A DNA stretch of 64,000 bases from Massalongia carnosa (GCA_965645245.1 OZ287077.1:1116001-1180000); one strand, 5' to 3'. Positions 27,905 to 58,600 are shown, counted from the stretch's first letter. A program made the numbers and translations. The notes: generated from the sequence alone by a model not told the origin.

Positions 27905-29205
27905 ACCTGTCACTAACGTCCTGCAATGCGCATGATCCGTGCCCCCCGTGCAGGTCTCCGTTCTCGAACACCATGACTAGCGCCCATCGCCTTTCGTGCG
28001 CGGAGTGGGGGCGCACTACTTAGTTAGTAGACGCTATGTTGATGTACTTATGTTAGAAACTTAGAGCGGGAGTGGGGAAAGGTGACAGGGAGAAGATGTG
28101 GGTGAGAAGGGGGTGTTTGGCTCCTAGCCCCGGAAATCCACGCCTATCTCCGAGAAAGAGAAAAAAAAAATCGGCAGAAAATGCCAGCGATCTCGGTGAG
28201 AGAGAGAAACACATCTCACCACGATGTTTTTTCTTAAGGCGTCACCAATGCGTAACGGATGACAGAGTACAGACCAGAGTACGACACGCCTCCAGTTACA
28301 CACATTTCTATCGTCAATCGCCCTCCAGATCCGATTCGGGCCGATCAGATCGCCGTCCCACGTTCCCTTTCCCCCTCCATCCAAACAAAAGATGCACTAA
28401 ACCAAGTAACATCGACCGACCGACCGACCGAGTACAGAGTACCACGACCCAAGATCCGAACGTCCTCCCATACCACTATTTTCCAATTTAAAAAAATTTT
28501 TAAGAAAAAAGGAAAAGAGAGGGCCCGTTCATTCCAGATTCCCGCCTTCCACAAGCTAGTTGCTTCGTATCCCGTCATAGCCGGCCGGCGAGAGCCCATG
28601 CAAAATGTCCACCTTACTCGCGACTCTGTGCTCTCTGTACCTCTGTATACGACCCAGGATAACAACATGGGGGGGAGCGAGAGACTCCAGTGTACTGGAT
28701 CGTGCGTGTGTGCAGAGCGTTTGCGAGATCTCTCGCTACTCTCCCGGTCAGCACGGTGATCCACTCTACCCTGTCTATCTACTCTGTATAGAACAAGTAT
28801 ATCGTACAGACCTCACCCTCCCGTGCGAGGGTGCATCGCTACCACTACCTCCCTACCGAGCACCTACCCACCTACCTACCTACCTACCAGCCTTTCTACC
28901 CAAACCCAAACCCAGTCAGGAACCCACTACCCTACCGGCCGCTTTCCGAACTAGGGAATTTCCCGAGGGGACCGGTGCTTATGTAGAAAGTTAGGTACAA
29001 AGCCCATATGTATCACCCGCGCGTAGCTCCCTCACGCAAAATCCTAAGAAACGAGAGGCTACTTGCCTAACTTACCTACCAATTGGGGGTGCAGGAGGGC
29101 TTGCTGGGTTGCAGAGGGGCTGCGGGGGATTTTGTAGGAGGTGTACAGAGAGTACAGACGGTAAGTGGGTAGATTAGTTGAATGGGTGAATGGAGACGAA
29201 GGAGG

Positions 29206-29252
29206 AGAAGAAGAAGAAGGAGAAGAAGAAGAAGAAGAAGAAGAAGAAGAAG
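29206..29252. repeat. (GAA)n microsatellite
   Basis: Nearly pure GAA run of about 15 units with one interruption. Confidence 0.9.
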
Positions 29253-29645
29253 CTATTAGGCATTACTATATAAGGTAGGTAGGAAAGTAGAGGTATTCGC
29301 TGGAGGTTCGGACATGGCTGACTTGAGCTGCTCGTGAGCTATTCGGTCGCAATGGGGAAACTACTCGATATGTATGTATGTATATGTTACCCAAGTCCGG
29401 CGGTCTGGAAACGAGCGGTTTCAAAGCCGATTCGGTTCCATCTGTCTATTTACGTGAGGCTCGTGATGTTTTATAATACCCGAGGTAGATATAAAGCAAA
29501 AACGTACGGTGCGAAACGAGGGTATCATCCACCAAAAAACCGCAATGCCACCGACGGGTTCGAACATCTATCCAACCAAACCCACCTCACTGTGTGTGCA
29601 ACACAACCCGACAGGGTTGGTGCTTTTGGATATAAAAACCACCCA

Positions 29646-41325: not shown

Positions 41326-44120
41326 ATGACAACGGCGGCAACGATTCGGCATTCACGAACGATTGCAATGCCATCGACCACGCCTCACGGTCTCCCTTCG
41401 CGTACCCCAGGATCTGTGGGTCAGACAGGTTCAACCGGCCCTTCCGCCAAGAGTCGGTTGCCTCGCTCGTCACGCGATCTAGGCTCCCCTAGTCCTAATT
41501 ATTTCGAATTCGTAGCCGACCCGGCCAGTAATCCAACAGACTCCAACCCTTGGGGCCATGCGAAGAAAAACTGGAGTCCCGGGTCAGGTGGTTTTCGTGC
41601 GTTTACAGGGACGTCGCCGAGAGCCTATCCGGCAGAGGCACAGCCAAGATTCGAAGCTTTTCGCAGGCAATCACAAAGCGGCACCTTCAATCTTAGCCAT
41701 GGGAGTTTATCGCATTTCAGTTTGGGCTCTGGTACGCTACAGTCCCCAACAGCAGATGATTCAGAAAGCCGGCCAGGGGGGTTCGTATCGCCGCCAAACT
41801 CGCGGAATGTACCCTTTACAAATTCTACAGGCAAAGCGACGCCGAGAAACGATCGCATGGAGATAGATTATAGTGTTCGTTCCCCACCTAATGAAGCTTC
41901 CAAACCCGAGGAACCACCCTCGTTCTTCGACATGCCGCGGAACCAATCTCCGTCACACGCGCCCCCTCTGGATTCATCGCATATGGAAAAGAGTCGATTT
42001 CCACAAATGAAAGAACGCGACAGGCCAAACTCCCTGCCGCATACTACAGCTGATCTTCCTTCGCCAGCAGCTTTGTCCTCCGTTATCCGGCGTGCTGCTA
42101 CTTTGCCTCCCTCTCTTGCGGACGAGAATCCAACCATGGTGTCTCCGCAAGAGCTGGTTGATATTATAAAAAACCACTTATCTCAAGATATTCTTTTGCT
42201 GGATTTAAGAGTGTTCCCCCAGTTTTCTCAGTCGAGGATCGAAGGTGCGATTAACCTCTGTATACCTACCACGCTCCTCAAACGTTCATCATTCAACGTA
42301 CAGAAGCTGGCAGAAACTTTCACCAAGGAGCAGGAAAAGGAAAAGTTCAGCCGATGGAGAGAATCCAAAGCCATAGTCGTCTATGACACTAGTTCCGCTC
42401 AGTTGAAGGACGCAATGTCGTCGGTTAATACTTTGAAAAAATTCACCAAGGAGGGTTGGCAAGGCTCGACATTGGTCATCCGGGGGGGCTTTGCAGGGTT
42501 CGCGAAGAAGTGTCCAGACATGGTTGATAAAAGACCAGCAAATGAGATGGAAGGCTCAAAGTCCAGGAAACTGGCCCTTGATCCGACGATGTCTGTTGCA
42601 GCTCCCTTAGCAGGCGGGTGCCTGATGCCAAGTTCAAAGTCTGCGGCAACCCCCTTCTTTTGTAACATTAGACAGAACATAGATTTGATCGGGGGGGTGG
42701 GCCAAATTGCCGTCAAACTCCCGTCCGGGTTGGAGACGCGGGGGGTGGCCAGTTTACCCCCTTGGCTAAGGCTAACCTCAGATGAAAGAGACAAGGGCAA
42801 GACCGTGGCCGAGCAATTTTTGGGAATCGAGAAGGCCGAACAGCTGAGGATGCAAAAGGCCCTAACAAGCAATTTCTGTTACGGTACTCCGGATCCCACC
42901 GCGGTTGAAAACATCCAGATCGCTGGTATAGAGAAAGGGGCTAAGAACCGCTATAAGGATATGTTGCCATACGATCACTCTAGGGTGCGATTGCAAAATG
43001 TGCCTTTGGGAGGTTGCGACTACGTCAACGCTAGTCACATCAAATCCAAATGGAGCCACAGGCAATACATTGCAACCCAAGCACCCGTGCCTGCTACGTT
43101 TCAGGTAGAATGTTCTTTTTGGACCAATTCGAAAGTCTGCTAAACTAACTTTCACAATAGGATTTCTGGCGTGTTGTATGGGAGCAAGATGCTCGCGTCA
43201 TCGTCGTGTTAACTGCAGAATCCGAAGGCGGCCAACGCAAATGCCATCCTTATTGGCTTCCTAGCGAGTATGGGCCTTTTAAATTAAAACTCCTTTCGGA
43301 GCGTAAACTCTCAATCGAGACTCCCAAACGAGCGTCCACAAATGGCTTCACACCTCCAAATCAAAGACCAGGCGCCCTAAGACCTGGCATAGATCGTCGT
43401 CGATCCACGAACAACGGCAGTCTGCTCGATAGCCACGTTACCTATGATCCGCCCGCGCCCTCAACACCAGACTACGAAACCCCTCACCTCATCGTTCGCA
43501 AACTTGCACTTTCCCACGCTATGCATCCATTTGAACCGATGCGGGAAATCACTCAGTTGCAGTATTCTAGTTGGCCTGATTTCGGCACACCCGCCCATGC
43601 TGCTCATGTACTTGGCTTGGTGGAGCATTGCGGGGCTATCGTTAATAGTTATGATAATGGGAAAGGAAAAGGAAAAGGAAACGGGCGGAGTGGCACAGAA
43701 GCCCCAGCCAAGAAAGATGATAGGCCGATAGTGGTGCATTGTAGCGCCGGCTGCGGGCGAACAGGGACCTTTTGTACTGTTGATAGCGTGGTTGACATGC
43801 TGAAGAGGCAGAGATTTTCGAAAGTCGGCCTTTCAAAAGAATTCGATGATGACGACGACGACGTGGAAGAACCCGTGAAGATGGATCTTGACAACAACGA
43901 CAAGGGAGCAAATCATGAAGGCCTCGAGCAGTTTCCCACCGACGAGGTGGATTTGGTGGCAGAAACGGTGAAGGATTTCCGCCTACAAAGACTCAGCATG
44001 GTTCAAACGCTGAGGCAGTTTGTGCTTTGCTACGAGAGCGTATTGGAATGGCTCGTAAAACAATCCCCCGATAAGGCGCTGGTGGACGCAGCGGCGGCGA
44101 GGAAGAGTTACCATGCATAG
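41326..44120 (+). CDS. Tyrosine phosphatase with rhodanese-like domain (Pyp1/Ptp2/3-type MAPK phosphatase)
   Basis: LLLDLRVF...GAINLCIPTTLLKR rhodanese; KNRYKDMLPY, YVNAS, WPDFG, VHCSAGCGRTG, MVQTLRQF; one intron 43105-43160. Confidence 0.93.
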
Positions 44121-45296
44121 GCTTGCCGCCACTCTGGTTCGAAATAGGACTTGGTTTTTGTAGAGGTGGAAAAGGGCACATGGAGTCATGAGCGCCTCAT
44201 AGCACTGGATGGGAAAAGCCCACGAGTCGGGGAGCAAGAGTGTTTATAGAGGGATCTCTTTTACCAATGCTGTTTGGGGGATGGGAAGCGAAATGCCTTC
44301 AAGGTGTACATATTCATTGCCTTTTAGTGCTTGGCCTGGGAAGCGCGTTTTGGCTGGGGCATGGTGAGCTTCGTTCCAAGGTTGACTTGCGTCAAACAAC
44401 GAGAGCAACAAAAAAGGAAAGTTTAAATTGCTTTTTTTATTTTTTATGTGTGGGCGATGTGGCATATCCAACGCAATCAACTCCCCGTGAAATGCCCCGA
44501 TGAACTCAAATTGGGCTGCTAACTAACATGAGGAGAGCAATGACAGCTAACTACCCGATGCCTAACGTTTGATGTGTCCGCCAAGGTCAGGTATGTACTC
44601 GTACTTGTTGGGATGGCAGGCTGTAGAGTAAGTAGTACGGAGTGTATATATAGGTATCCGAGAAAGAGAAAACCAACCAACCAAACCAAACCATTAGAGT
44701 ACGTTTTCGATTCTACATAGACTTACTACTACCACTACATCTGTGGGGTAGGGGGTGGGGTTGGTAAGTCCCCTGCTTGCTTGATGGATGGATGAGGGGG
44801 GAAGGGGGAGATCTAGAAGTGATAGCAATAATTTAATCGAACAGCTTTAAACAAACACTTTACGTACCGAGTAAGTACGTACGTACATAGCATCCACCCC
44901 AAAACAAAAGTAAAAAAGCCTCCCGATGAGCAAAAGATCTCGATGAATTTGTTTTAATCGCATTCATGCATCATAACACTGTCTTTTCAAGCATGCGGAA
45001 TCAGATAAAATCGCGTCGCGCGAATTCAACGTTTCTGTCATTCTTGTGCATGGACATAGCTAGGTATAGGTATGTATGTATCTCGATAACATCTTCTGAT
45101 CCGTAAACGCCTTGAAAAGAAAAGAAAAAAAAACAAGTGGGCGGTAGTAATACGAGGCAATATCGCTTGATGACTTCCAGGTTCGCTTCTTCATTTTCAA
45201 AAAAAAAGAGGAAAAAGGCGCCTGTACCCAGTAGAGCCTCCAAGAGAGAATATGATAATCCCAGACTATGAGGTGGAGCAAGTCAAAGGGAGAACC

Positions 45297-47221
45297 TTAG
45301 GGACTGGTGGGAAATATATCCCCGTAGACCATCGGCGTCATCGTTACTGTACACGGCACTTGGACCCCGTTGGCCGTGTAAGCTTCGAAGTCCCCGCTTG
45401 ACACGCATGGCGAGACCCTCGGGAGCTTGAGATCGACGCGGACCTCTACAGTTCTGTTCCAATCCTGTTCCGAAATGTTGCACAACAGGGGTGGAAATTT
45501 GGCGGCACTCGATTGTAATTTCCCAGTTCTGCCAGCCTTGTCCCCGAACCAGCGCTGCTTCCAGTTAACCGCAGTGTGGTGAGATCAGCACACCCAAGGA
45601 CCCTGACGTACGAAGTTCTATCATGTAGCTTACAGTAACGAAGCCGCCGCTCGCTTTTTTACGCCCACTATGCGTAGTGATTTCTTACCCGGCCCCTCGT
45701 TAGCTTATCCCTACCAAAAATTTCTTAATCGGGGTATCCCGTATAATGACGGTCATAAATAGTAGTTACTGATTCCACTTGATAAGGCCGCCCACAGCCA
45801 CCGCGTCAATGCTATATTTGGGTGAGCTCTATCAAACAGGAAGAGCATGACAAAGACTCACTTTGATATCCGAGAAAGAGGAGCGATGTGTTTTAGTTTA
45901 GCAGCAGTATAGTGTCTCCCGCCCCCTCCGCCAGCAAGCACAAGCTATTTCTTATTACTTACGGGTGGATCTGGGAAGAGTTTCAGTGCGTCCAAAATAA
46001 GTGTTTCCAATTGGTCTTCGAATACCCCAAATATGGCATGGAGATCAGTGCTACAGCCGCTTCGTTAAACATGCGAGACCTTTGGCAGGAGCAAGTCATG
46101 GTACTAACAAAATCATGTTCCCGTTGCAAATTCCCGCCTCTTCATGAAAAAAAGGCTTGCTACAATTAGGGATTCTTATGCTAATGGGTTTTTCATGATT
46201 CGTCAAGCCAGCGTACCGTGCCTTGGACTCCTGTAATTGGCATCGTTTACTTATATGATTAGCCAGTTTGGAGATATTGGAAATCCCGCTATGTGTAGGC
46301 GACACCTAGCATCAAGCTGAAACTCTCGATCGATGTCATTGGAGCCTCTGGAAAGCCCCTGAACGGGAGCTAGAAGCCAGCAGACCCGATGGCAGGACAA
46401 TTTCGCCACTCGAAGAAAGCAAGGGTCAGATGTCCCTCCGCCCAAATCCAGGATTAGAGAAGTGTCGCCTTCCGTGAAAAGGTGCAGGTTAGATCGGAGA
46501 AATAAGGTTGCAACCGCATCCGATTCGGTAATGTTATAATGGAGACTTTTCAGCCGAGGACCATAGGCTCGGACTTCAGGAGTCTGGCATGCGATATTGA
46601 TAGCGCCTCTGGCGATGTAGCTAAATGTTCTGATAGTGCTCGCGTCCCATGTTGTCGGCGTTGTTAGAATGCAATGTATCTTCAGCTAAATGGGAGTGCT
46701 AGTAGTCCCAAGCCTTTTTTGTAGGTTGTCTCCAATGACGGTCATGGCATGTCCAATCAAAGAGCGGATGTAAACATAAATCCACAATTTCACCTCATCG
46801 ATACCTCGTGGAGATTGTTCGTAGAACCATGCTCGGTCGGGCGAGTGAAATACGGGGTCCAGCAGAACTTTGAAAAGTTCTTTGGTGCTGGAGCCATTAT
46901 CGCTCTTGCACTGAAAGCCCCATGATATACTCCCGGACGGGTTAATCTTGATCTGTGTTGGGGTTTTGAGGGAGTTGAATCCACAGGAGGGCCTTTGGCG
47001 GATGGTATGAATCTCTTCAGGGTCATCAGCTGTTTTCCACGCAACAACTAGACGGTGAAGTTAGTCAATGCCACCCAGCACACCGTTTAAAACTCAGAGG
47101 ATCCCCTCTATCCTTTGATGTTCTTCTTTGTCTTTTCTATGTACTTTACACATCTGCACTCACCAGAACCCGTCATACCAAAATCCACCGCGATACCGAC
47201 CTCGAGAGTTTTGAATGACAT
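45297..47221 (-). pseudogene. HSPA12-like atypical Hsp70 pseudogene
   Basis: Manual translation: IAVDFGMTGS/intron/VAW, KTPTQI, SWGF, ELFKVLLDP, LTTPTTW, ITESDAVA, ILDLGGGTSD, GSNDIDREF, LVLAGGG; in-frame TAG at 46686-46688, a frameshift near 46280 and further stops; 3' limit approximate. Confidence 0.8.
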
Positions 47222-47299
47222 CTCGAACAAAGTGTTCTAAATTCCAAGGCGAAAGATAAAATGGTGAAGGATTAATGCTCGAGGCTTCTTGGTTGATGC

Positions 47300-47640
47300 C
47301 GTACGCGATGCCAATATTCAATGGGCGATGAAATACTCGAGCTTCTGCACGGAAAGAAGAAGATCAGCGGCCTTTTTATTTCTGTTTTTTGTCCGCTGCT
47401 GCCTCACGGACGCGGATCTCAACACAAGCCTAGCTTTGCTATTCGTGCTCTAGTTGTAGAAGCCAATTTACCACTTCTTTGCTACAATTCTCTTTGCCGG
47501 TCTTGGATTCCTGCCAATCGTTTGTGGGGGTCTTCGGGATACAACAAGCATGTGAGACCTTGGACGGTGCACATCTTGTATCCTTTGGCCGGGTGTGCAA
47601 TGTTCATGATTTGATTCACACGCATTAGCCGGACTCTCAC
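47300..47640 (-). pseudogene. Possible Zn(II)2Cys6 transcription-factor relic
   Basis: ACESNHEHCTPG /frameshift/ YKMCTVQGLTCLLYP gives two C-x6-C loops; followed by a coiled-coil-like stretch with TAG stops. Confidence 0.35.
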
Positions 47641-48474
47641 TTTTCAAGCAAGAATCCTCATGTCAGAGGTTCATATGATCCAGAATTGCCGGGCTGGAAG
47701 AAAGACGGGGCCTATGAGTTTCATTGAAAGACAGCCTCTCTCGTTGTGTCGCCTAGAACTCCAAAGAAGAAAAGTGTCATCGATACCGAGCTTGAAATAC
47801 TGGGCTGCAGTCTCGGTTCACTGCAATAGCTATATCGTAGCAAAGCACTGTTTCGGGAGCTGGATCAATGGCTGAAGTTGCCGCGAGGTTCCAATTTAAG
47901 TGTTTCACGCCTTCCAGGTTTCTGAAATGCAATGCGCTTTTATCGTTTATTATCCTTGCGTGTAAAGGAATTGCACATGAGATTGAGACTGATTAATAAT
48001 TTAATACTGACTGCTGCAAGCACTTAGATCTGAATCAACTCAGGTGAATGCACATGCGCGGTGGCAACGAGGACGAGGATTGATTCATTCGGCCTCACAA
48101 GGGTCTTGCTCTTACTTTATCTAAGTTGAAAGCGCTTCACATGTGATGAAGTCTCGGATGGCGGAATGAAGAGCAAGTTGTTTGTTGTTCCTCGTGACAG
48201 CAGCAGCAATACATGCGTTGTTTCGGATCAGGGGTTGCCGTGTCACGTCACGACGGCACCAAGGTTGTTTCTGTCGTTTGAAGGCTTCGGATCCAAACAG
48301 TCAACGTTCGCCCGATTCGTAAAACCTCTTTATGTTGCGGATCTTTGTTCGGACATGATCGGGGCAACTCGAATTTTTGTTGGGACGCCACATTCATCGA
48401 TGCATTCCTGGCAATCCGTGCTTAAAAACAGCATGTGAGTTTCCATATTTTTTTCTTTCAACAAGTTCCTCCTC

Positions 48475-50116
48475 ATGCCCGAAGCTGATCCGTTCTCCAA
48501 AATGTCGCCACCTAAAAAAAACGTAAAGTCCTACGTCAAGTCCAAGAACCGCAACCCTCCACCAATCTTTTTACAAAACCCTCCATGCATTCTTCTATCA
48601 ATTCCCCCACGGATCCGTCCCCGAAATCTCTTACGAATCCCTCTCTGAAATCACCTGCCGATCCTTCCACGAAGCCTCTCATGAATCCTTCCGCAGATCC
48701 CTTTATGGATCCCTGCATGCATCCCTCCAAGGATTCCATCATGAACTCTTCCAACAACCTCACAAGGAATCCTTCCGTAATCCCTCCACGAATCTCGGAA
48801 CGACTCCCTCTAAGGAACCCTCCATGGATCCTTTCACAGAATCCCCCATGCATCTCCACGAGGATCCATTCTTGGATATCTATACGGAAGGTTGGGGCGT
48901 GGACAAAGAGGACTCAAAAACCTTGTCGATGAAAATGGGCATATGCCGCGATACCCGTATGACTTCCAGCAGTTTGACCTTGGAAATGTCGACATTATTG
49001 ATCACATGACCACTACTTACCCTCAGGCCGTGGATATACTCCCAAGGGTCAGGATTTCTTTCGAGCTGTCGCAAATTTTGCCATAGATTTCGACGGTGTT
49101 AGCGATAGCAGAATCATATATGCCAACGAGGTTGATCGAATTCAGCAAGTTTTAGACGAATTTGGACAAATGGACCCCGAGTTCCCCCCGGCCCTAATCG
49201 TGGATTTTCTTAAGAAGAGGTTCAATGTACCAGCCTTTATCCACATCATCAATTGGACAATCTAAGCCAGCCTCGCAGCAAACGGTGACATACGACATAC
49301 CTTGTTGCCCGCTCGAGTCGCTGCCTTGTTCTGCGACATTGATAGTCAAAGCAAGTCTCCCGCGCACTCATCCATATAAAGCCCCTCCTTAACCATCGGG
49401 TAGGCACCAAGAAACACCAGATTTTATCGCGAAAATGGATTCGATTGACCTTCGGGCTATTGAGAGGAGGTTACGCTCAGTTTGCGGCTTCTGACGAATG
49501 GCGTTATGGTATGGATCGTATCAAACGTTTCTTCGCCAACTCCTTGGACCCCAATGTCGAGAAACCGATGCCTACGGCAAGTCCTTTTCTAAAGGGCTAG
49601 ATGAGATATTTAGGGACGCTATACCTATTGGATACCTCCTCCTCGGTCATTCCGACCAATATCGTTGGGACTGGAATTGGCTACAACCGGAGGACTACGA
49701 TGAGAGAGTTAACGGGGCCCATCCCAAAACGCCTTCGTCCGTAGACAGCGATCCAAATCTACCTTTCGTCAAATCGCCAGCACTGCTGCTAGAGAGTTGC
49801 ATAACTGGAGAACTTCATGATGACTCCGTTACCTGCCACGAGGCCAAGTACGAGCAGTTGTTGGACCTCGAAAGCGGCCAAGCAATTGTGGGACCCACAC
49901 CATCTAACTACGCGAAAACCTAGGACGCTGATTCGGTTGGTGAGCAATGAATACTTAGCATTTGACCGCATCCGAGCACACTCATCGTTCGAAGTGCTTG
50001 TGAGCCAAGCTTCTGTCATTTTTGATCTAAAAGTTTGGCTGGTCGGTAATTTCCATAGATGGTGTTTATTGTACTTCGAGAAAATGCTTTCGTGGCGAAA
50101 ATCTTGTAAACATTGA
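48475..50116 (+). pseudogene. Frameshifted gene of unknown family with N-terminal 12-bp (tetrapeptide) repeat
   Basis: Chain of + strand ORF fragments (48585, 48824, 48892, 49498, 49817); about 20 degenerate 12-mers encoding DPST/NPSA/DPFM/HPSK. Confidence 0.5.
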
Positions 50117-51914
50117 AGCTCAAAATTTTTTGGTTTCGGTTAGAAAGAAAGGACTTCCGATCTACGAGTAGACAATGATATGATATAATGGAATGTGATA
50201 ATACTCTAAGTAGGGACTTAATAAATGAAATGAGGGCGCTGTTTAGGCAAGTGAGGCTAGTAACCTAAGTCCAAAAAAAAAATTTCGTGTCAGTAGACTA
50301 TGGCCTTATGGAGGTGAAATCGCGCTACGGTATGAGCAGCGGTTGAAGAACCAAATACCTGAGAAGTAGCAGGCTCAAGTCAGCTACAAACTTGCAGCCA
50401 AAAACAACCTCAACAAAGCTGTTCCAGAATCACCTATTACTGCACATACTAAAAACAATCAAAGTTAGCCTAGAGTACTATGGAGGGTCAGCAAGGCGTT
50501 GGAAAAGTTAGCCACTGTTTAATAAACCTCTTCGTTTACCTGGTCCTTCTAGCTCTCCAATAGAGCCACCCCCCCTTCAGTCGATGAAGGCAAATGGGAT
50601 GCAGCAAATATAGGTTATTCGAGATTCTCAACCGAAAAACTTCTGTAGGGAAGGAAAAAACCTCACGGTTGGTAAGGACACATCACAAGGGGAAGGGTGG
50701 CAGCCCAAACATGGGTACACAGCTGAATTTATCAGATCTTAAACGGGCTGGCTCATGTACGAATTTTAATGGCATCGAGTTCATGGTGCTCAGCCAGCAC
50801 ATTTCATAGACCCTTCTAGAGTTGGCCTCATAAGGCTAATTAATGGGAGATATACTATAACTATTGTCACGATGAAAATGATGAGACCTACCCTAGATTT
50901 CCACTCCACTCCGCTAAACGATGTAGATAAATGATGAAAAAAAAGAAAGCAAAATCGAAACTTTCTGACAGAGTATGTGGATGAGTTCATAAACCGACTC
51001 AAGCTTGACCTGAATCTTTGTACCGAAGGATAACAAGCTGTTGGGAGAGTTCCACTAGATGCTACAAAGGATATGTTAGATAAGACAGGAAATTGTATAA
51101 GCTAAAAGCTAGCGTCGTGATATGACAATCTAGATTAATTGTAGGATACACAATTAACTGAGGTTGAGGTGACCAACATCGAGACCCTCATTCGGCATGG
51201 CCTTATGGTGCAGCCGCTTCATGCATGCTTCGTTGACGGAACGTGACTATGAATGTGGGAAGGTTATCCGTATAGAAGAGTATAGACTAGAAGTTTTGAT
51301 GCGGTGCATTCAACAATCACCTTGTTCTAGACTCCGTGCTGTTGATTGAGGGGTTAGTCGGTCATGAGCCTACGAAGTGGTATCTCGCAATAGTCTCATG
51401 ATCCGAAGTTGGTTTTAAAGGGTTTCAAAAAAAGATGAATCGTGGTCCTCTATGAATGTTTCAAGACTCAAAATACTACGACTTACATCCTAATTAATAT
51501 GCCAGGTACCATGTCGCAGCTGAGCATTCTTACACTATCGATGAACTAATTCGAAGAAGCCCCTTTATTGGGCGCGTAAGGCTCTTGAGGTGGATCTTTA
51601 TTTTCAAAAGATGATCAAAAAGACACAAAATGCCTTCAAGGTCATATTCTTTATTTCGAAAAACAGCTGGGCTGTGGAACAATACTTTGAAATTGAAGTG
51701 TGCCCTGGTATGAAAAAAAAGGCGTGGTGCCGACTTATACGATGATTTCGACAGAAATCAGAATTATATCCGTCGCCTTCTGCGATCGTTATCATCTGGC
51801 TTAACTAGACGAATAGATTTCTGCGGTATTACCTGCAGCAATACCTTGGCCTTGGGCCTCGGTTCGGGTTGCCGTATCCAAAGCGGGATATGGGGTTTTC
51901 TTAGCCTTGATAGC

Positions 51915-53835
51915 TTGCGAGGTGACCGAGTTCGGGCATCACCTGTGACAGGATATCCAGGAGGTTCGGCTTTCACATCATCGTCGGGTTGCCCCCTCCC
52001 GCGGATCATGATTTTCCAGCCGCTCCGCCTCCGAACCTGTTCAGGCTGGAATTCCTGCAAGCTTTTCAGAGTGATGGTATCGCGATACCTCCCAGCTTTG
52101 CTTCTGGCTGCTTTGATATCGGAATGGGTGGCATTATCGTCTGAGCTGGTGGACTCGGCTCTTGAATTCTATAAGCTAAGGATCCTGCCTGATGCTAGCC
52201 TCTTTCTCGGCAGGAATCTTTCTTGAAAGGCCTCTTTCACGAAACTTGGCAAAAGATTGGAAGAAATCGACGTAATCATGTTGTGCCGGTTTGTTTAAGA
52301 AGGCGAGGTTCCCGTAAACGAAAGAGGTATTCACTATATGGCTTTGGCTATATACACGGGTATCTATCTGCGTTATATGCTGGGATCGTTTGGCTTTGGT
52401 GTATCTTTCTCTATAACTCGTTCTTAGCGAGAGCGGACTTAGCGTTCTGTGGATCTTTTCAAGGCAATTTATCATCAACTTTATTACCGAGTTAGCGCCG
52501 TATGGCATGAACAGCAGCATGACCAAAGTCTCCCGAAAGCTTGAATATAGATTTGACATTGCGAGGTCTTCTTCGATAGCGGTTCTTCTGAGACACCCTG
52601 TTGCATAGTGGCATTGCCTGGTAACGGTCGACCTTTGCGGAATCGTTCCATCGAAGAATAAGTTCGTTTTGCCGGGAGGTATTTCTAACTATCATAAATC
52701 TTCGGCCGAATTGACACGGAAGATAGCCTTGTCTATGAGAGCCAAGGCTAGTAGATACTAGGTATCATCATAGCAGCTTGCCATATTGAATAAGAGACGC
52801 GCGATACCTTCAAAGAAAATCATCAGTTAACACATAACAAAGGCGATGCGGATATCGATACACAGTATTTTCTGGATCGCGGTTTTTTTAACCAAACGTT
52901 GATCGATCCGATATATCACTTTCCACCCACCACTAGGGATGCGTACTAAAATCCCTTCAACATCCTGCAAGCGATCAGCGAAGCTCCTTTCAGATCGTTC
53001 CACAGAGATCCACCTGATATCGAAAGCCCCCTTTGTCCTTGTTCTTTTTCTTGAGGAAGAAGACATCGATCCTCGCCCTAGTTCAACAAAAGATGACGAT
53101 TGCGAAGAGGACTTAAGAACTTGATAACGCGGATGGATGAATTGGGTATCGCTAAAGATCCAAAACGTGATGTTGAATTGAATCAATTCGTTTTTGCCGA
53201 AAGGTTGCTTCTGCTTTTTCTTATTCATAACCAGGCTCTCTTTGATCAGGATACTTCTGATCAACTAAACGAAGTTCTTTTAGCTACTGGGACATCACAA
53301 TCTCATTCAAGGTTCACGTACATCGTATACCGCGCGCCTGTCTTCCTCCTCAATAAGACTGCCGGTAACTCGAGGAAATCCAACAAAGAAACATTCGGCA
53401 GAGTATTAAGTGTATGGACGGTGATCCGTACATCGTCGATTCTTCCTCGACTAATGGCCACGTAAAGCGAAGGAAGTCTTTAATCATAGTAAGATCGGGA
53501 GGGGGTAAACCTTCTCATAGGCTTCGTGCTTTCGTATAGCATGCATCTGCCGCGGCATCGTCGTCAGAAAGTAATTCTCCCGTGTCACGGTTCCTCTCCT
53601 CGATGACGTCCACCCATCTACTCGATTGGGTAAGCATAATACCTTTAGTTCTGGATTAGCAACTCACTTCTCATAACATCCTGAAGCCTAGGTTTGACCT
53701 TTGAGGCCTTTGAGGGCCTTCTTCATATGTTTTGTATCGTCCCTGATGCTATTTTCTTCCTGATGAGCCCCCTACTTAAAATCATTGGGCTTTGGTCTTC
53801 AGTAGCTCCTCCGCCGGTACTTCTTTACGGCCCAT
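51915..53835 (-). pseudogene. DUF3435 tyrosine recombinase (Starship 'captain') pseudogene
   Basis: Across frames: PDLTMIKDFLRF, SRGRIDD, FFVGFPRVTG, FIHPR, GWKVIYRIDQR, YLLALALIDKA, ELILRW, GDFGHAAVHAIRR*LGNKVD, ERYTKAKRSQHITQ, FQSFAKFRERGL, IPAEKEASIRQDP, LLDILSQVMPE; many stops and frameshifts. Confidence 0.88.
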
Positions 53836-54151
53836 AATCGTATGCGATAAATGAAAGAGTCTTGAGTGAATGTGGTAAAGCTTGTAGGCTTGCTTGATAG
53901 GCTCGCGGAGCAGGTAAGGTTCACGCGTATACTGGGTTGTACGAAGGAAGGGTGAAAATGCTGGAGCAGACTTGGAGGGAAATCTCTCGCGGGCGGTGAT
54001 TGGCAGACTTTTTGGACGGAGCCAGAATTGGAGGCACACCTACTCTCTTTTACCCCGTCTCGAAGCCATTTTCAGGGTTATCTGAGGCTATACTCTATAC
54101 AGGAGAGCGCTCGATAGAAGGGTGAGTGTGGAAGGATTTATCATTCGGATA

Positions 54152-54188
54152 GGGGTGCTACATCACCTAGGGGGTGCTGGATCACCCC
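54152..54188. repeat. Tandem pair of GGTG-N6-CACC dyads upstream of the captain
   Basis: GGGGTGCTACATCACC 54152-54167 and GGGGTGCTGGATCACC(CC) 54171-54188. Confidence 0.7.
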
Positions 54189-54213
54189 GGTCACGCTAAA
54201 GGCGGCATGCCTA

Positions 54214-55551
54214 CAGTACTAGGTCAAAAGTTTCCGACAGCTCCCCATCAACTTTTTACCCCCCCCACTGCTTTGAATTATCAACCACCAAGTTTTTATT
54301 TTATGCCTTGAAACTTGGTACGATGATTACATACATTCTAGCAAGGAATTTGGGATGAGAAATATATTTTTAATATTTCGTATACCATCCTTTCGATTGG
54401 ATGCAAGCTTCAATCCTCCTTTCCATGCTCTCTATTAAACTTCTCAACATTTCCTCATCTATCAAGGCCTATGCTTCTTCCAACGCTTTCCAAAGTACCT
54501 CGCGGACCTTATCATCACTACCAGTCACCGAATCGATGTCCGGATTGACTTGATAAAAGAGCTGTTTGAGCACATACCAAACGTGCTCGATGGGGTTCAA
54601 ATCAGGAGAATAAGGAGGCCAATCGATGATTGTTATACCGTTTTCATCGAACCATTTCTTCGCCTTTTTGGCAGTATGAATCGGTGCATTATCCTGTATG
54701 AAAATGAAGCCCGGTTCCCAAATTTCAAGCAGATTATCGTTCAATAATTCCAAATATGAATTCGCGGAGTACCCCATCTTCTTTGCTTCGAAATCGCGGG
54801 CCAATTTGTAAAGATCTGACCTTCCTCTCATACAAAAAGCCCCCCATACCATAACCTTGACCTCCTTGCCTTTGGCGTACGGTTGTATCATAGGTTTTTT
54901 CCATTTTTCCTCCGGAAATCTGAACATCCATTGACGCTATTTTCCTGACCCCTTTTCCACCGAACACTCGTCTGACCATATAATTTTTGACCATTGCTCA
55001 GAAGTCCACTCACGCCGAAGCAAGCACCATTCTAATCTCTTCTTTGCCACCTCGGGCGTCAATAAAGGCCGCTTTTTAGCCAGCCAGTTTGTTATACCGT
55101 AGTCTTTGAGCGTCCGATAGAGAGTGGATCGACTGCATTGCACCCCGGCCTCCGTACGCAGCTGCGCATAGGTGATGCGTGGATTGATTCGTGCAAATTT
55201 GATGATACGTCTTCTATCGCGATCCGAAAATATTCCAGGCCGACCTGATCGCGATTTGGACTTTTCGTTGTTGCGTTCTGAGTGCTTTTGAAGAGTGTAA
55301 ATGACGGTGGTTCGAGGCACATTTAATGTCTTTGCAATTTCGGCCGGTGCATGCCCCAACGCCTGGGCTCCAATAATCATACCTCTTTGACATTGATTCA
55401 ATTTGGTATTACGAGGCTTATTACCAGAAATTGAAGCCAACGGAGTGCGTGGCATGGTGAAATGATGAGGTCAAAGTTGATGGGTTGGAGGGGTTGAAAC
55501 GCGAAATCACGAAAATCGCGGGTAGAGTCGGAAACTTTTGACACGGGACTG
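54214..55551 (-). mobile_element. Tc1/mariner (impala-like, DD34E) DNA transposon, 1338 bp
   Basis: TA duplications 54212-13 and 55552-53; TIRs CAGTACTAGGTCAAAAGTTTCCGAC vs CAGTCCCGTGTCAAAAGTTTCCGAC (21/25 identical). Confidence 0.95.
54370..55455 (-). pseudogene. Tc1-family transposase (361 codons) with two in-frame TAG stops
   Basis: HTH N-terminus, RSGRP, WSDEC, FIQDNAPIH...SPDLNPIEHVW (34 residues between D and E), GWYTKY*; stops at 54937-39 and 54469-71, all in one frame. Confidence 0.93.
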
Positions 55552-55622
55552 TACGTCTCACGCGTTTTCGAATCATCTACATACATACCTACTTTTCAAA
55601 CACCCTCCTCTGGAACGACACC

Positions 55623-58600
55623 ATGTCGTCCATGTTCGGTCAACTAAATCCGGCATCATCATCGCAGTCTCAAACCGCCCCAGCAATCAATATATTCGGT
55701 CACCTTACAAGTTCTCAATCTCAGCAATCCCCAACTTCCCAGCCTGGTGGATTATTTGGCAGTTTAGCAAGCTCGCAAGCTCCTGCACCGCAATCAACTG
55801 GAACACCCTTGCAACAGTCTTCAGTCTTTGCGGAGCTTAGTGGCCAATTAAAGCCCCCAGCTTCCGCGAATGTATCGGACTCTCAGGCATCAACACTGGC
55901 GACCGGGAGTGGGGGAGGGATTTTGGGGTCGTCACAGCTAGCGGGAGCCCAACCACCGCATAATACAAGCTTTCCGGATTCTCAAAATAATGCAACTACT
56001 TCACAACCATTTGGATCGTCCTTTATCTCGCCCCAACAATCTCAACAGCAACAAACCCAATCAGGGCAATCTCAGGGTTGGACTGGTCAGCCGAGTCTAG
56101 GCATCAGTAGATCCTCACAACCGGTGTATTTTGACAACTTGCTGGAAAAGGGAAGGAACAAAGCAAATGATCATCCTGGAGGATCAGGATTTGGGGAATT
56201 ACCAAGCTTGCAACTTGGCTTGGGTGATATTGCCAGAAGAGCAAGGGAAATAGGAGGTGCGGGAGGGCAGGTACACGGAGGTGCCACGGTGGATGGCAAG
56301 GCGTCAGCTTGCAGATTATTCTTTTTCATCGGGTTACGGGAAAACTAACACAGGGTACAGGCATTATCTTTTGGCTGCCTCGGGAGTAAACCCTGGTACG
56401 ACTCGACGCGACCTTAATGCTCTTAATGCTATACCTTTCGTTGGAGGTAATCAGCAACAATTACCAGAGTGGGATCCAGACACGGGTAAGTATGTGGCCC
56501 AGTTGCAACAGCAATCCACACTCAAGATGACTGCTGAGGGTGTCGAGCGTGCACATCGCAATTTCGACGCCTTTCTCGAAGAGAATGTTGATATCAACTG
56601 GGAACTACAGCGTAAGAAGATTTATGAACACTTTGGGCTTTTGTCGAAAGGCAATGATGTAACAGATGAAGGTGCTTCATTTGGTAGTCCTGGTGGAAAG
56701 GGAAGTTTTGGCAGATCTACGAGAAAAGGACAAACCACCAACACACGCAAGCCTGGGCAAGCTTCGTTAAATAGAAGTATCTTCGGAAAATCAAGTTTAC
56801 AAAAATCTGTCATTGGTACCCCTGGTGTTGGGTCTCCAAATGCAACGCTTTTTGCCGATGTAACGGAGAAGAATGGGAACTCAACAAAGGCACATGATGA
56901 TCGGCTTGTACGAGAAAGACAAGCGAAATTTGCAGAAGTGGTGCAGAAATTAAATCAGGCCCGCCTGGATGAGAAATCGTATCCCGTCGTTCAGGAATTT
57001 GCATCTGTGGAGAGGCAATCGGGAGGAGAGGTAAGGTATATTCATACTCCAGAGGCATTTATTCACTTACAGCTGATTATCTAGTCTTCAAAACGACTCA
57101 TAGATGCTTATGAGGCGTTGACCGAGATCGTTGACGATCCTAATACTTCTAAAAAGTTGAATGGATCTATACTCGCCAAGGAACGTCATTTTGCTGAGAG
57201 TTACCTTGACGAGACGCCTAATTTTGCAAGATCAACGAATATCCGAAAGAAAATCATCAATGGTTCAAGAAGTTGTTTGGAGAAGCAGTAAGGAGACTCT
57301 TCATGCGTTGCCTGGCGGAACGATTAATGATATGTTATAGGTTTTTTGACCATCTTACATCTATCATAGCTCGACATCCCCGCGAGGCGAATGTCGGCGG
57401 CATACCGACAAACATTAACAAAGTTCGAGCGTATGTAAGGATACGTGCTGGCCGCAAAGATCTTACCCCAGATGGCACTGATTTGCAGGTTCTCGAGAAT
57501 GACTATTGCTGGGCATTAATATTCTTCTGCCTCCGAGCTGGTCTGCTCAGGGAGGCCGCAGAATACGTGACAAGCAATGCTACAGCATTTCGAGCACTGG
57601 ATCGTAATTTTATCACTTACATTACAAGTTATGCCGGCAGCACCGAGAAACGATTATCCAGATCGATGCAAGACCGTATAAATGCAGAGTATCAGCAACG
57701 ATCACGTATTGCTCCAGAAAACTCGCTCGATCCTTACCGTATGGCATGCTACAAAGTAATCGGTCGTTGCGAACTCAGCAAACGAACCTTAGATACAATT
57801 AGCCAAGGGATAGAGGATTGGATCTGGTTACAATTCAGTCTTGCTAGAGAAGTCAACCGTGCTGAAGAAGTTGCAGGTGATGTCTTCGGGCTGGAGGAAG
57901 TGCGAGAAACGATCCGCGAGATTGGCCAGCGCTATTTCATTAAAGGCCAAGAGGATATGGGTGGCTATGGAACGTACTTCTTCCTGCAGGTGCTAGGAGG
58001 CATGTTCGAGCAAGCTATAGCGTTCCTTTACCCTTACTCGTATGTCTCTGCAGTTCATTTCGCTATTGCATTGGATTTTTACGGGTTACTACGCGTTTCC
58101 GATTTTTCCATCTCGGAATCAGAGCTTCGTAAGTCTTGGTGTGAGAAATATGGTCACTTACTTCGTCTAAATGTGCAGCAGTCACCTATAATACCAAAGA
58201 GATGCCTCAGATCAGCTTTGGCCGCATGCTAGGCTACTATACGCGTGACTTTCGATCGGGGAATGTTGAAGCAGCGGTGGATTATCTCGCCTTGATTTGT
58301 CTCAACGGTGATCTGCCAGGGTCCTTGGGCAAATCTCAAGCCTCATTATGCCACGAGGCTCTACGCGAACTTGTATTGGAAACTCGAGAGTTTGCACAGC
58401 TCCTTGGCGATATCCGCTCTGACGGAACTAGGCTACGAGGAGCAATCGAGCAACGGCTGAAGCTTATTAGCCTGGCCGATCAAGACGAATTTCTTCATGC
58501 CGTTACTATCCAAGCCGCCAGCATCGCCGATGACAATGGAAGAACAAGTGACGCAGTGCTCCTTTACCATCTTGCAGAAGATTATGACAATGTAATCACG

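What the first reader, a model, noticed from the sequence alone, without database searches (positions are those of the whole stretch)
51915..53835. Hidden, shattered Starship captain (DUF3435 tyrosine recombinase)
Seen: stitching minus-strand frames gives an ordered motif series from an N-terminal MGRK... through IKDFLRF, SRGRIDD, FIHPR, YRIDQR, HAIRR*LG.KVD, RYT...RSQHITQ, F..FRE.GL to LLDILSQVMPE, with intron remnants (GTACGT...GCTAA...TAG near 53320-53265). Knowledge: this order matches my recollection of DUF3435 YRs, the first gene of Starship giant transposons in Pezizomycotina. Inference: the catalytic Tyr of the GQSY motif reads SQSH here, one donor appears GT>AT, and there are many stops, so the gene is dead. 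The ORF track shows it only as unrelated fragments.
Basis: partly seen in the sequence, partly recalled or inferred. Interest (0 to 1): 0.8.

Follow-up and report, generated by a model that had tools for sequence, protein, structure and literature searches.

The report
Dead Starship-type recombinase gene relic
The minus strand at 51.9-53.8 kb holds a badly broken, single-copy leftover of a Starship-type (DUF3435) tyrosine recombinase gene in a lichen-associated fungus, but no giant transposon can be shown around it, so it is a real and rather ordinary transposon fossil.

Summary
A frameshift-aware alignment lays an intact 577-aa DUF3435 protein (P0002, Lecanora helva) collinearly on window 53835-51916 (minus strand). 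With four short intron remnants left out, 239 of 513 aligned residues are identical, with 10 stop codons and 12 frameshifts. The score is 723, against 33-54 in 18 controls.

A full HMMER search with one read-through frame gave 180 hits at E<=1e-3, best intact 1.1e-41. PF11917 was found in 18 of 20 long hits scanned. The relic itself reaches only E 0.13 on PF11917.

A model of P0002 matches Cre recombinase over both domains (Z about 13). The Tyr that is invariant in 14 of 14 relatives (GQSY) reads His (SQSH) in the relic.

The 'Starship captain' reading is not shown:
- Core genes flank the relic closely. The Nic96 start lies about 450 bp upstream once a polymorphic Tc1/mariner is discounted, and a phosphatase gene ends 7.8 kb downstream.
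- No accessory-gene domains, terminal repeats or empty site were found.
- Depth is single-copy, and there is no RIP signature.

Starship recombinases in lichen fungi and degraded copies are already published. This scan met similar relics on other DNA before. Interest is low.

The parts
51916..53835 (-). Pseudogene of a DUF3435 (Starship-type) tyrosine recombinase, collinear with residues 1-522 of the 577-aa relative P0002. The last ~55 residues of the relative have no counterpart.
   Evidence: Frameshift-aware alignments: 239/513 identical to P0002, 10 stops, 12 frameshifts. P0003: 197/405 identical. phmmer E 1.1e-41 and 3.2e-34. Controls.
53618..53667 (-). Intron remnant 1 (50 nt, GTGAGT...GCTAAT...TAG). 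It joins ...CYEK to WVDVIEE..., matching YHMW of P0002.
   Evidence: Sequence. Removing the four introns raises the alignment score from 770 to 855. Read by eye; no transcript data.
53265..53321 (-). Intron remnant 2 (57 nt, GTACGT...GCTAAA...TAG), phase 0.
   Evidence: Found independently by the aligner's intron state. Sequence.
52965..53013 (-). Intron remnant 3 (49 nt, GTGGAT...GCTGAT...CAG). It joins GGFRYQ to DVEGILV..., matching GLRYRDLEMVLL of P0002.
   Evidence: Found by the aligner's intron state. Sequence.
52409..52472 (-). Intron remnant 4 (64 nt, ATAAAT...GCTAAG...AG) with AT in place of the GT donor. Removal gives KVD-ERYTKAKRSQH, matching KVDERYSDVQRSQH of P0002.
   Evidence: The ancestral GT is inferred, not observed.
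52492..52509 (-). Box II of the recombinase: CAT GCC ATA CGG CGC = H-A-I-R-R (HxxR kept), followed at once by a TAA stop where relatives have Gly.
   Evidence: H346 and R349 of P0002 are conserved in at least 90% of 14 relatives.
52338..52352 (-). TAT AGC CAA AGC CAT = Y-S-Q-S-H, where relatives read F-G-Q-S-Y. His (52340-52338) replaces the invariant Tyr, the presumed nucleophile, and Ser replaces the invariant Gly.
   Evidence: Y381 and G378 of P0002 are invariant in 14 of 14 sequences. Relic residues.

Best explanation
Window 53835-51916 (minus strand) is a long-dead, single-copy pseudogene of a Starship-type tyrosine recombinase (tyrR, Pfam DUF3435). It sits alone between ordinary host genes of a lichen-associated ascomycete.

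The ancestral protein would have worked like Cre. An N-terminal core-binding domain and a C-terminal catalytic domain clamp the ends of a mobile element. A tyrosine attacks the DNA backbone to form a covalent 3'-phosphotyrosyl intermediate, and the element is cut out and re-inserted without a footprint.

The copy here can do none of this. It carries 10 stop codons and about 12 frameshifts. One splice donor appears mutated, the C-terminal ~55 residues are lost, and His stands in place of the nucleophile Tyr.

The decay looks like ordinary neutral erosion rather than repeat-induced point mutation. The cargo-carrying element it may once have led is no longer recognisable.

Shown: homology, collinearity, the lesions, the recombinase fold of an intact relative, single-copy state, and presence in samples of three studies. 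Inferred: the ancestral catalytic mechanism, by analogy with Cre and with HhpA of Hephaestus. Also inferred is that the gene once belonged to a mobile element.
For: 1. Homology. phmmer of one read-through frame (52098-53405, stops as X) against 1.84 billion representatives gave 180 hits at E<=1e-3, 59 at <=1e-10 and 3 at <=1e-30. The best intact proteins were P0002 (1.1e-41, 3 stretches) and P0003 (3.2e-34). Of 20 long hits scanned, 18 match PF11917 at E<=1e-3 and 17 reach its curated cut-off.

2. Collinearity across frames. tblastn pieces lie in the order -2, -3, -1, -2 at this locus only; every off-locus hit has E>=0.019. The frameshift-aware alignment gives 239/513 identical residues over P0002 1-522. 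Controls score 33-54 against 723.

3. Enzyme class. An AlphaFold model of P0002 (pLDDT 79.6) has Cre as best Foldseek match (E 7.3e-06). VIA-align gives Z 12.4-13.1 with 262-278 residues aligned, model 27-376 to Cre 25-320, which covers both domains.

4. Dead.
- 10 stops and 12 frameshifts against P0002; 9 and 9 against P0003.
- The invariant Y381 reads His, G378 reads Ser and R308 reads Gly.
- H346 to Y381 is 35 residues. That is the spacing of HhpA Y381 (at the His site) to Y416, both needed for transposition (PMC10104507, passages), and of Cre H289 to Y324 (recalled).

5. Not an assembly error. Contigs of X1 and X2 cover the relic with 0 differences. A 59-kb contig from another study (X4) covers 43001-54211 with 81 substitutions and 27 gaps.

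6. Single copy. Depth over 52001-53800 is 866.7 in X1, against 859.4 and 889.7 in the flanks.

7. Relatives. The nearest rows in a 23-row tree are the two Lecanora helva proteins. The 6-row group around the relic has SH-aLRT 94, and its named members are from Lecanora, Caloplaca and Xanthoria.
Against: - The relic itself does not reach Pfam's threshold. None of its 9 fragments hit PF11917, and the read-through frame scores only 11.6 bits, E 0.13, against a cut-off of 25.8. Family membership therefore rests on transitive homology.
- A word-indexed search with 96 residues found nothing.
- No whole genome is held, so divergent intact paralogues cannot be excluded.
- Frameshift counts depend on my own aligner and on which relative is used (7-12 across five relatives).
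- Three of the four introns are read by eye or by a simple GT..AG rule, without transcripts.
- That the GQSY Tyr is the nucleophile rests on invariance, spacing and the end of the structural alignment (model 376 = Cre 320). It does not rest on a residue-level superposition.
- Nothing tests whether short ORF pieces are transcribed.
Confidence: 0.9

Rival explanations
1. The relic is still the captain of a recognisable but derelict small Starship. The element would run from just upstream of the relic (about 54.2 kb) down to about 44.2 kb, at most 10 kb, and the gene-poor 44.2-51.9 kb stretch would be its eroded cargo.
For: The recombinase is transcribed towards that stretch, as captains are. The 7.8 kb hold no Pfam-recognisable gene in ORFs of 70 aa or more (0 of 32) or in six read-through frames (0 of 6). 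They contain at least one lineage-specific gene interrupted by a stop (47081-45950). Pfam also missed the relic itself, so decayed accessory genes could be missed too.
Against: - No DUF3723, ferric reductase, patatin or NLR signal.
- No terminal inverted or direct repeats. The only inverted repeat touching the relic (51907-51929 / 55696-55718) has its second arm inside the Nic96 coding region.
- Ten kb is below the elements described. A 17.9-kb candidate with only a tyrR was judged a likely false positive in PMC13486527 (section 6).
- No empty site in the 4 runs laid.
Confidence: 0.12
2. It is a relic of a different tyrosine-recombinase element (Crypton or DIRS-like) and not of the Starship / DUF3435 lineage.
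For: Cryptons are small elements that carry essentially only a recombinase, which would fit the lack of cargo here. Starship recombinases are described as related to Cryptons (PMC11162782, passages).
Against: The relatives found carry PF11917 at up to 1e-32, and the only Pfam family that the relic touches at all is PF11917. No reverse transcriptase or other DIRS-type domain lies nearby.
Confidence: 0.03
3. The gene is functional, and the apparent lesions are assembly errors, unusual splicing or recoding.
For: Four short introns do account for some frame changes.
Against: After intron removal, 10 stops and 12 frameshifts remain. Contigs of two runs are identical to the window, and a contig from another study is about 99% identical over the locus. 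The nucleophile Tyr is missing. The stops are of all three kinds, so no single reassignment opens the frame.
Confidence: 0.01

Closest known systems
Starship tyrosine recombinases (tyrR, 'captains'; Pfam PF11917 DUF3435), e.g. HhpA of Hephaestus and KIRC of Enterprise
   Same: - Homologous to proteins that carry PF11917.
- The intact relative has the Cre-like core-binding plus catalytic fold.
- The HxxR box and a Tyr 35 residues later are as in HhpA (PMC10104507).
- His at the HxxR position is as reported for KIRC, not the Tyr of HhpA.
   Different: The copy here is dead: stops, frameshifts, Tyr to His, truncated 3' end. It is single-copy and not at the head of any delimitable cargo element. 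No direct or inverted terminal repeats and no empty site were found. Its Starship family was not determined.
Pseudogenised or 'derelict' Starship captains (e.g. the Wallaby captain with many premature stops; degraded Horizon and Tangerine copies)
   Same: A captain-type gene riddled with stop codons. Many of the 10,771 predicted recombinase genes are expected to be pseudogenes (PMC11162782, passages). Degraded copies in lichen fungi are discussed in PMC13486527 (sections 6-7).
   Different: Published degraded copies are mostly ascribed to RIP and sit in AT-rich RIP-affected regions. Here the RIP indices equal the window average: TpA/ApT 0.73 against 0.75, and composite index -0.48 against -0.47. 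No remnant of the element is identifiable.
Tangerine family of Starship recombinases, specific to Lecanoromycetes (PMC13486527)
   Same: The named nearest relatives of the relic are all from lichen-forming Lecanoromycetes: Lecanora helva, cf. Caloplaca sp., Xanthoria mediterranea.
   Different: Most Tangerine-family captains are reported to lack a core-binding domain: 34.9% have none and 53% keep only 8 residues (section 8). P0002 aligns with Cre from residue 25 on, and the relic keeps that N-terminal part. Membership could not be tested: no reference sequences were available and the supplement was unreadable.
Cre / XerH / lambda-integrase tyrosine recombinases
   Same: Same two-domain fold by structure comparison of the relative's model: Z 12.4-13.5 for the Cre and XerH rows, 10.3-11.1 for the lambda-integrase rows.
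   Different: No detectable sequence similarity: a profile search of solved structures gave no recombinase hit. The eukaryotic giant-transposon context differs, and long C-terminal extensions occur in many relatives.

Membership tests
DUF3435 / Starship-type tyrosine recombinase (tyrR) | Direct match to Pfam PF11917 at or above the curated cut-off (25.8 bits) | tested here: not met
   None of 9 fragments hit it. The read-through frame scores 11.6 bits, E 0.13, profile 214-314 of 418; it is the only family listed for that frame.
DUF3435 / Starship-type tyrosine recombinase (tyrR) | Significant, collinear sequence homology to bona fide PF11917 proteins | tested here: met
   phmmer E 1.1e-41 to P0002, which itself matches PF11917 at 4.6e-32. 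239/513 identical over residues 1-522. Controls.
DUF3435 / Starship-type tyrosine recombinase (tyrR) | Tyrosine-recombinase fold with core-binding and catalytic domains | tested here: met
   Tested on the intact relative P0002, not on the broken relic. Cre is the top Foldseek match (E 7.3e-06). VIA-align Z about 13, model 27-376 to Cre 25-320.
DUF3435 / Starship-type tyrosine recombinase (tyrR) | Complete catalytic set (R, K, HxxR, nucleophile Tyr) | tested here: not met
   The Arg of the GARIG box, the Lys of the VKNN box and H-A-I-R are still readable. The invariant Tyr (14 of 14 relatives) is His in the relic.
DUF3435 / Starship-type tyrosine recombinase (tyrR) | Open reading frame | tested here: not met
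   10 stops and 12 frameshifts after removing four introns.
Starship element (captain plus cargo) | Recombinase is the first gene at the 5' end of a large element with cargo and accessory genes (DUF3723, FRE, PLP, NLR) | tested here: not met
   Core genes close in: Nic96 ATG at 55623 and phosphatase gene end at 44120. No Pfam family in 44.1-51.9 kb. Decayed genes could escape Pfam.
Starship element (captain plus cargo) | Defined boundaries (short direct repeats, terminal inverted repeats) and an empty site in another genome | tested here: inconclusive
   No credible terminal repeats. The relic is present in all 4 runs laid, from 3 studies. No related species' genome could be compared.
Starship element (captain plus cargo) | Evidence of mobility or several copies | tested here: not met
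   Depth equals the single-copy flanks at 85% likeness or more. More divergent copies could not be tested because no genome is held.
RIP-degraded repeat | TpA/ApT above about 0.89, (CpA+TpG)/(ApC+GpT) below about 1.03, positive composite index (thresholds recalled) | tested here: not met
   Relic 0.73, 1.21 and -0.48; whole window 0.75, 1.22 and -0.47.
Tangerine family (Lecanoromycete-specific Starship recombinases) | Monophyly with the reference Tangerine captains; usually no core-binding domain | not testable with these tools
   No reference sequences were at hand and the supplement was unreadable. The relic's clade keeps a core-binding domain, which is atypical for that family.

The most novel reading that the evidence does not exclude
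The relic may mark a former insertion of a Lecanoromycete-lineage Starship into the short interval between the phosphatase and Nic96 genes. Either almost all cargo was later deleted, or the recombinase gene moved on its own as a minimal captain-only unit of about 2.5 kb. The second case would mean that Starship recombinases can spread without a ship. The eroded 44.2-51.9 kb stretch, with its stop-broken lineage-specific gene, would then be the last trace of cargo.
Probability: 0.1. Interest if true: 0.4.

Novelty: new member of a known kind. Interest (0 to 1): 0.2.

Why it matters
It shows that a Starship-type recombinase gene once landed in this lichen-associated fungus and then decayed in place. 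This adds one dated-by-decay data point to the recently opened question of how Starships have shaped lichen-fungal genomes.

In practice, such relics escape both gene callers and Pfam. Here they appear only as 114- and 58-aa ORFs and an E 0.13 hit. Counts of Starship recombinases based on intact genes therefore understate past activity.

Beyond that it is an ordinary transposon fossil. Starship recombinases in 554 lichen-related genomes, and degraded copies, are already in print (PMC13486527, PMC11162782).

Tried and rejected
- Pfam on the 9 stop-to-stop fragments of the relic: no DUF3435 hit, only an irrelevant DUF1836 at E 0.098.
- Word-indexed homology search with residues 75-170 of the 170-aa ORF, longer proteins: 84 candidates, none significant.
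- Whole-genome search for paralogues: no genome is held for this window.
- Profile of 14 relatives against sequences of solved structures: 6 weak hits, E 0.62 or worse, to zinc-finger proteins in the Cys-rich C-terminal extension. No recombinase by sequence.
- RIP as the cause of decay: the indices are those of the rest of the window. Of the 8 stops aligned to a residue of P0002, 4 (R68, W192, Q260, W282) are one transition from a codon for that residue. This is an inference, because the ancestral codons are unknown.
- Inverted repeat 51907-51929 / 55696-55718 (23 nt, 83%) as possible element ends: rejected. One arm is recombinase coding sequence and the other lies inside the Nic96 coding region. 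A 19-of-23 match is about what chance gives in 12 kb (my estimate).
- Expression: no RNA holder is listed among the runs.
- Empty site for the relic: none among the 4 runs laid. The only empty site found belongs to the neighbouring Tc1/mariner.
- Supplement of PMC13486527, for family assignments of Lecanora, Caloplaca and Xanthoria recombinases: unreadable. It may hold the family of the relic's relatives.
- Earlier-findings look-ups by place and by sequence: nothing.

Full report
**Observation**

As plain ORFs it is only a set of fragments of 30-170 aa.

None of the 9 fragments hits DUF3435 in Pfam. A word-indexed search with 96 residues found nothing. Reading each frame through its stops (stops as X) gave one faint hit: PF11917 DUF3435, E 0.13, 11.6 bits against a cut-off of 25.8, profile positions 214-314 of 418. 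No other family was listed for that frame.

**Homology**

A full HMMER search was run with one read-through frame (52098-53405, 436 residues) against 1.84 billion cluster representatives. It gave 180 proteins at E<=1e-3, 59 at <=1e-10 and 3 at <=1e-30.

Two of the top hits (114 aa at 100% identity, 58 aa at 98%) are ORF predictions of the relic itself. The best intact proteins are P0002 (577 aa, E 1.1e-41, three matched stretches) and P0003 (428 aa, E 3.2e-34). Both are hypothetical proteins of the lichen fungus Lecanora helva.

Of 20 long hits scanned, 18 match PF11917 at E<=1e-3 and 17 reach the curated cut-off. tblastn of 12 relatives against the whole window finds collinear pieces in changing frames at this locus only. 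Every off-locus hit has E>=0.019.

**Anatomy**

I wrote a protein-to-DNA aligner that allows frameshifts and GT..AG introns. I then repeated the alignment after leaving out four intron remnants:
- 53667-53618: 50 nt, GTGAGT..TAG.
- 53321-53265: 57 nt, GTACGT..TAG.
- 53013-52965: 49 nt, GTGGAT..CAG.
- 52472-52409: 64 nt, ATAAAT..AG.

P0002 residues 1-522 then align to 53835-51916 with 239 of 513 positions identical (46.6%), 10 stop codons and 12 frameshifts.

| Relative | Identical / aligned | Stops | Frameshifts |
|---|---|---|---|
| P0002 | 239/513 (46.6%) | 10 | 12 |
| P0003 | 197/405 (48.6%) | 9 | 9 |
| Three more distant relatives | 35-39% | 5-7 | 7-9 |

The same aligner scores 723 on the relic with introns kept. 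It scores 33-54 on 18 controls: 1 reversed, 5 shuffled and 12 other stretches of the window. The last ~55 residues of P0002 and the long Cys-rich tails of other relatives have no counterpart downstream of 51916. The copy is therefore also truncated or eroded at its 3' end.

The introns show that this was a genomic gene copy, not a processed one.

**Enzyme class and active site**

- An AlphaFold2 model of P0002 with 37 aligned relatives (mean pLDDT 79.6, pTM 0.61) has Cre recombinase as best Foldseek match in the PDB (5crx_B, E 7.3e-06). Integron, XerH, Tn1549 and XerA recombinases follow.
- VIA-align gives Cre chains Z 12.4-13.1 with 262-278 residues aligned, model 27-376 to Cre 25-320. Both the core-binding and the catalytic domain are covered.
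- In an alignment of 14 relatives, four columns are invariant: R308, Q367, G378 and Y381 in P0002 numbering. H346, R349 and R350 are at least 90% conserved.
- H346-x-x-R349 is the box II motif, and Y381 lies 35 residues after H346.
- The PNAS paper on Hephaestus (PMC10104507, passages read) states three things. HhpA has Tyr381 at the usual His position and Tyr416 in the active site. Y381A, Y381H and Y416A all fail to restore transposition. KIRC has His at the first position. The spacing of 35 is the same, and it is also that of Cre H289-Y324 (recalled).
- The structural alignment ends at model 376 = Cre 320, which puts Y381 within about a residue of Cre Y324.

I therefore read the GQSY Tyr as the nucleophile. 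In the relic the box II motif is kept (H-A-I-R-R, 52509-52495) but is followed at once by TAA. GQSY reads SQSH (His codon 52340-52338), and R308 reads Gly. With more than 20 disabling lesions it is only one defect among many.

**Context**

The window is ordinary fungal chromosome. Pfam finds a transketolase-C domain, STL11, sterol methyltransferase, a kinase, an amidase, an NAD nucleotidase, AMP-binding enzymes, a rhodanese/tyrosine-phosphatase gene (41.2-44.1 kb), Nic96 (55.6-59.1 kb) and lunapark.

Upstream of the relic's ATG lies a 1,340-bp Tc1/mariner copy at 54212-55551:
- It matches DDE_3 at 3.5e-17 and HTH_Tnp_Tc3_2 at 1.6e-16, and has an in-frame stop.
- It has inverted ends.
- It is a high-copy repeat: summed contig depth is about 330,000-356,000 against about 860-890 in the flanks in run X1.
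- It is absent from a 59-kb contig of a lichen metagenome from another study, which joins 54211 directly to 55552.

With that insertion discounted, the relic's ATG (53835) lies 447 bp from the Nic96 start codon at 55623.

Downstream, 7.8 kb separate the relic from the phosphatase gene. They hold no Pfam family in 32 ORFs of 70 aa or more, or in six read-through frames. They contain one gene of a lineage-specific family broken by a stop (47081-45950, minus).

There is no tRNA or other Rfam RNA. The one inverted repeat that touches the relic has its other arm inside the Nic96 coding sequence.

**Population and copy number**

- Contigs of runs X1 and X2 (same organism label as the best holder, possibly the source itself) cover the relic without a difference.
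- The independent X4 contig covers 43001-54211 with 81 substitutions and 27 gaps.
- A 309-nt contig of X5 (another organism label, third study) lies inside the relic with 0 differences.
- Depth over the relic equals the flanks, so no copy of 85% likeness or more exists elsewhere in these data.
- The relic is thus fixed, single-copy and not an assembly artefact.
- RIP indices of the relic (TpA/ApT 0.73; (CpA+TpG)/(ApC+GpT) 1.21; composite -0.48) equal those of the window (0.75, 1.22, -0.47). Decay is not visibly by RIP, and frameshifts are not what RIP makes.

**Relatives**

I built a quick maximum-likelihood tree of 23 rows: the relic's conceptual translation plus 22 of the 37 hits of 250 aa or more. 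The 22 were picked by hand for coverage, and the other 15 were left out.

The relic sits in a 6-row group (SH-aLRT 94, below the 95 mark). Its nearest rows are P0002 and P0003. The named members of that group are from Lecanora helva, cf. Caloplaca sp. and, through the cluster of P0067, Xanthoria mediterranea. One row is unnamed. All named members are lichen-forming Lecanoromycetes.

**Comparison with what is known**

- Starship recombinases are DUF3435 proteins that lead giant cargo transposons (PMC10104507, passages; listing).
- starfish predicted 10,771 such genes, and its authors expect many to be pseudogenes. They recommend 'derelict' or 'degraded' for inactive copies. The Wallaby captain is cited as full of premature stops (PMC11162782, passages).
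- For lichens, PMC13486527 (abstract and sections 6-8 read) reports 1,508 recombinases in 554 genomes. It also reports a Lecanoromycete-specific Tangerine family, most of whose members lack the core-binding domain, and possible degraded copies.
- The relic's clade keeps that domain. Whether it belongs to Tangerine or to another family could not be tested, because there were no reference sequences and the supplement was unreadable.
- Earlier notes of this scan describe similar DUF3435 relics in other genomes.

**Verdict**

The label 'Starship captain' goes beyond the evidence: there is no ship. It is a new, dead member of a known family. It is useful as a record of past Starship-type activity in a lichen-associated fungus, but not surprising.

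Noticed in passing
window 54212-55551 (minus strand): A 1,340-bp Tc1/mariner copy with inverted ends. Its transposase frame is split by one in-frame stop (HTH part 54937-55470, DDE_3 part 54469-54936). It is a very high-copy repeat in the sequencing runs. This insertion is absent from a contig of another study, which joins 54211 to 55552 at a TA, so it is a recent polymorphic insertion.
   Followed up: partly
window 45950-47081 (minus strand): A frame with one internal stop (46686-46688) is 64-68% identical to three unnamed 189-257-aa proteins and 42% to a 316-aa one. None of them has a Pfam domain. It contains a DLGGGTSD motif reminiscent (recalled) of the phosphate-binding loop of Hsp70/actin-like ATPases. 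It is either a lineage-specific gene or another pseudogene.
   Followed up: partly
window 48553-48854 (plus strand): About ten degenerate copies of a 12-nt-periodic repeat (62-74% identical) lie inside a 160-aa open frame (48527-49009) rich in Pro, Ser and Ile. Neither the frame nor the repeat has a Pfam match.
   Followed up: no
window 28001-29500: This is the only stretch of the window with a clearly positive composite RIP index (0.47-0.69, TpA/ApT 1.26-1.50), yet its GC is about 51%. The cause was not examined.
   Followed up: no
relatives P0021, P0082, P0111 (not in the window): Some DUF3435 relatives carry extra C-terminal domains: a chromodomain (Colletotrichum) or a Myb-like DNA-binding domain (Fusarium). 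Many share a Cys-rich region after a YRPGEEP motif.
   Followed up: no
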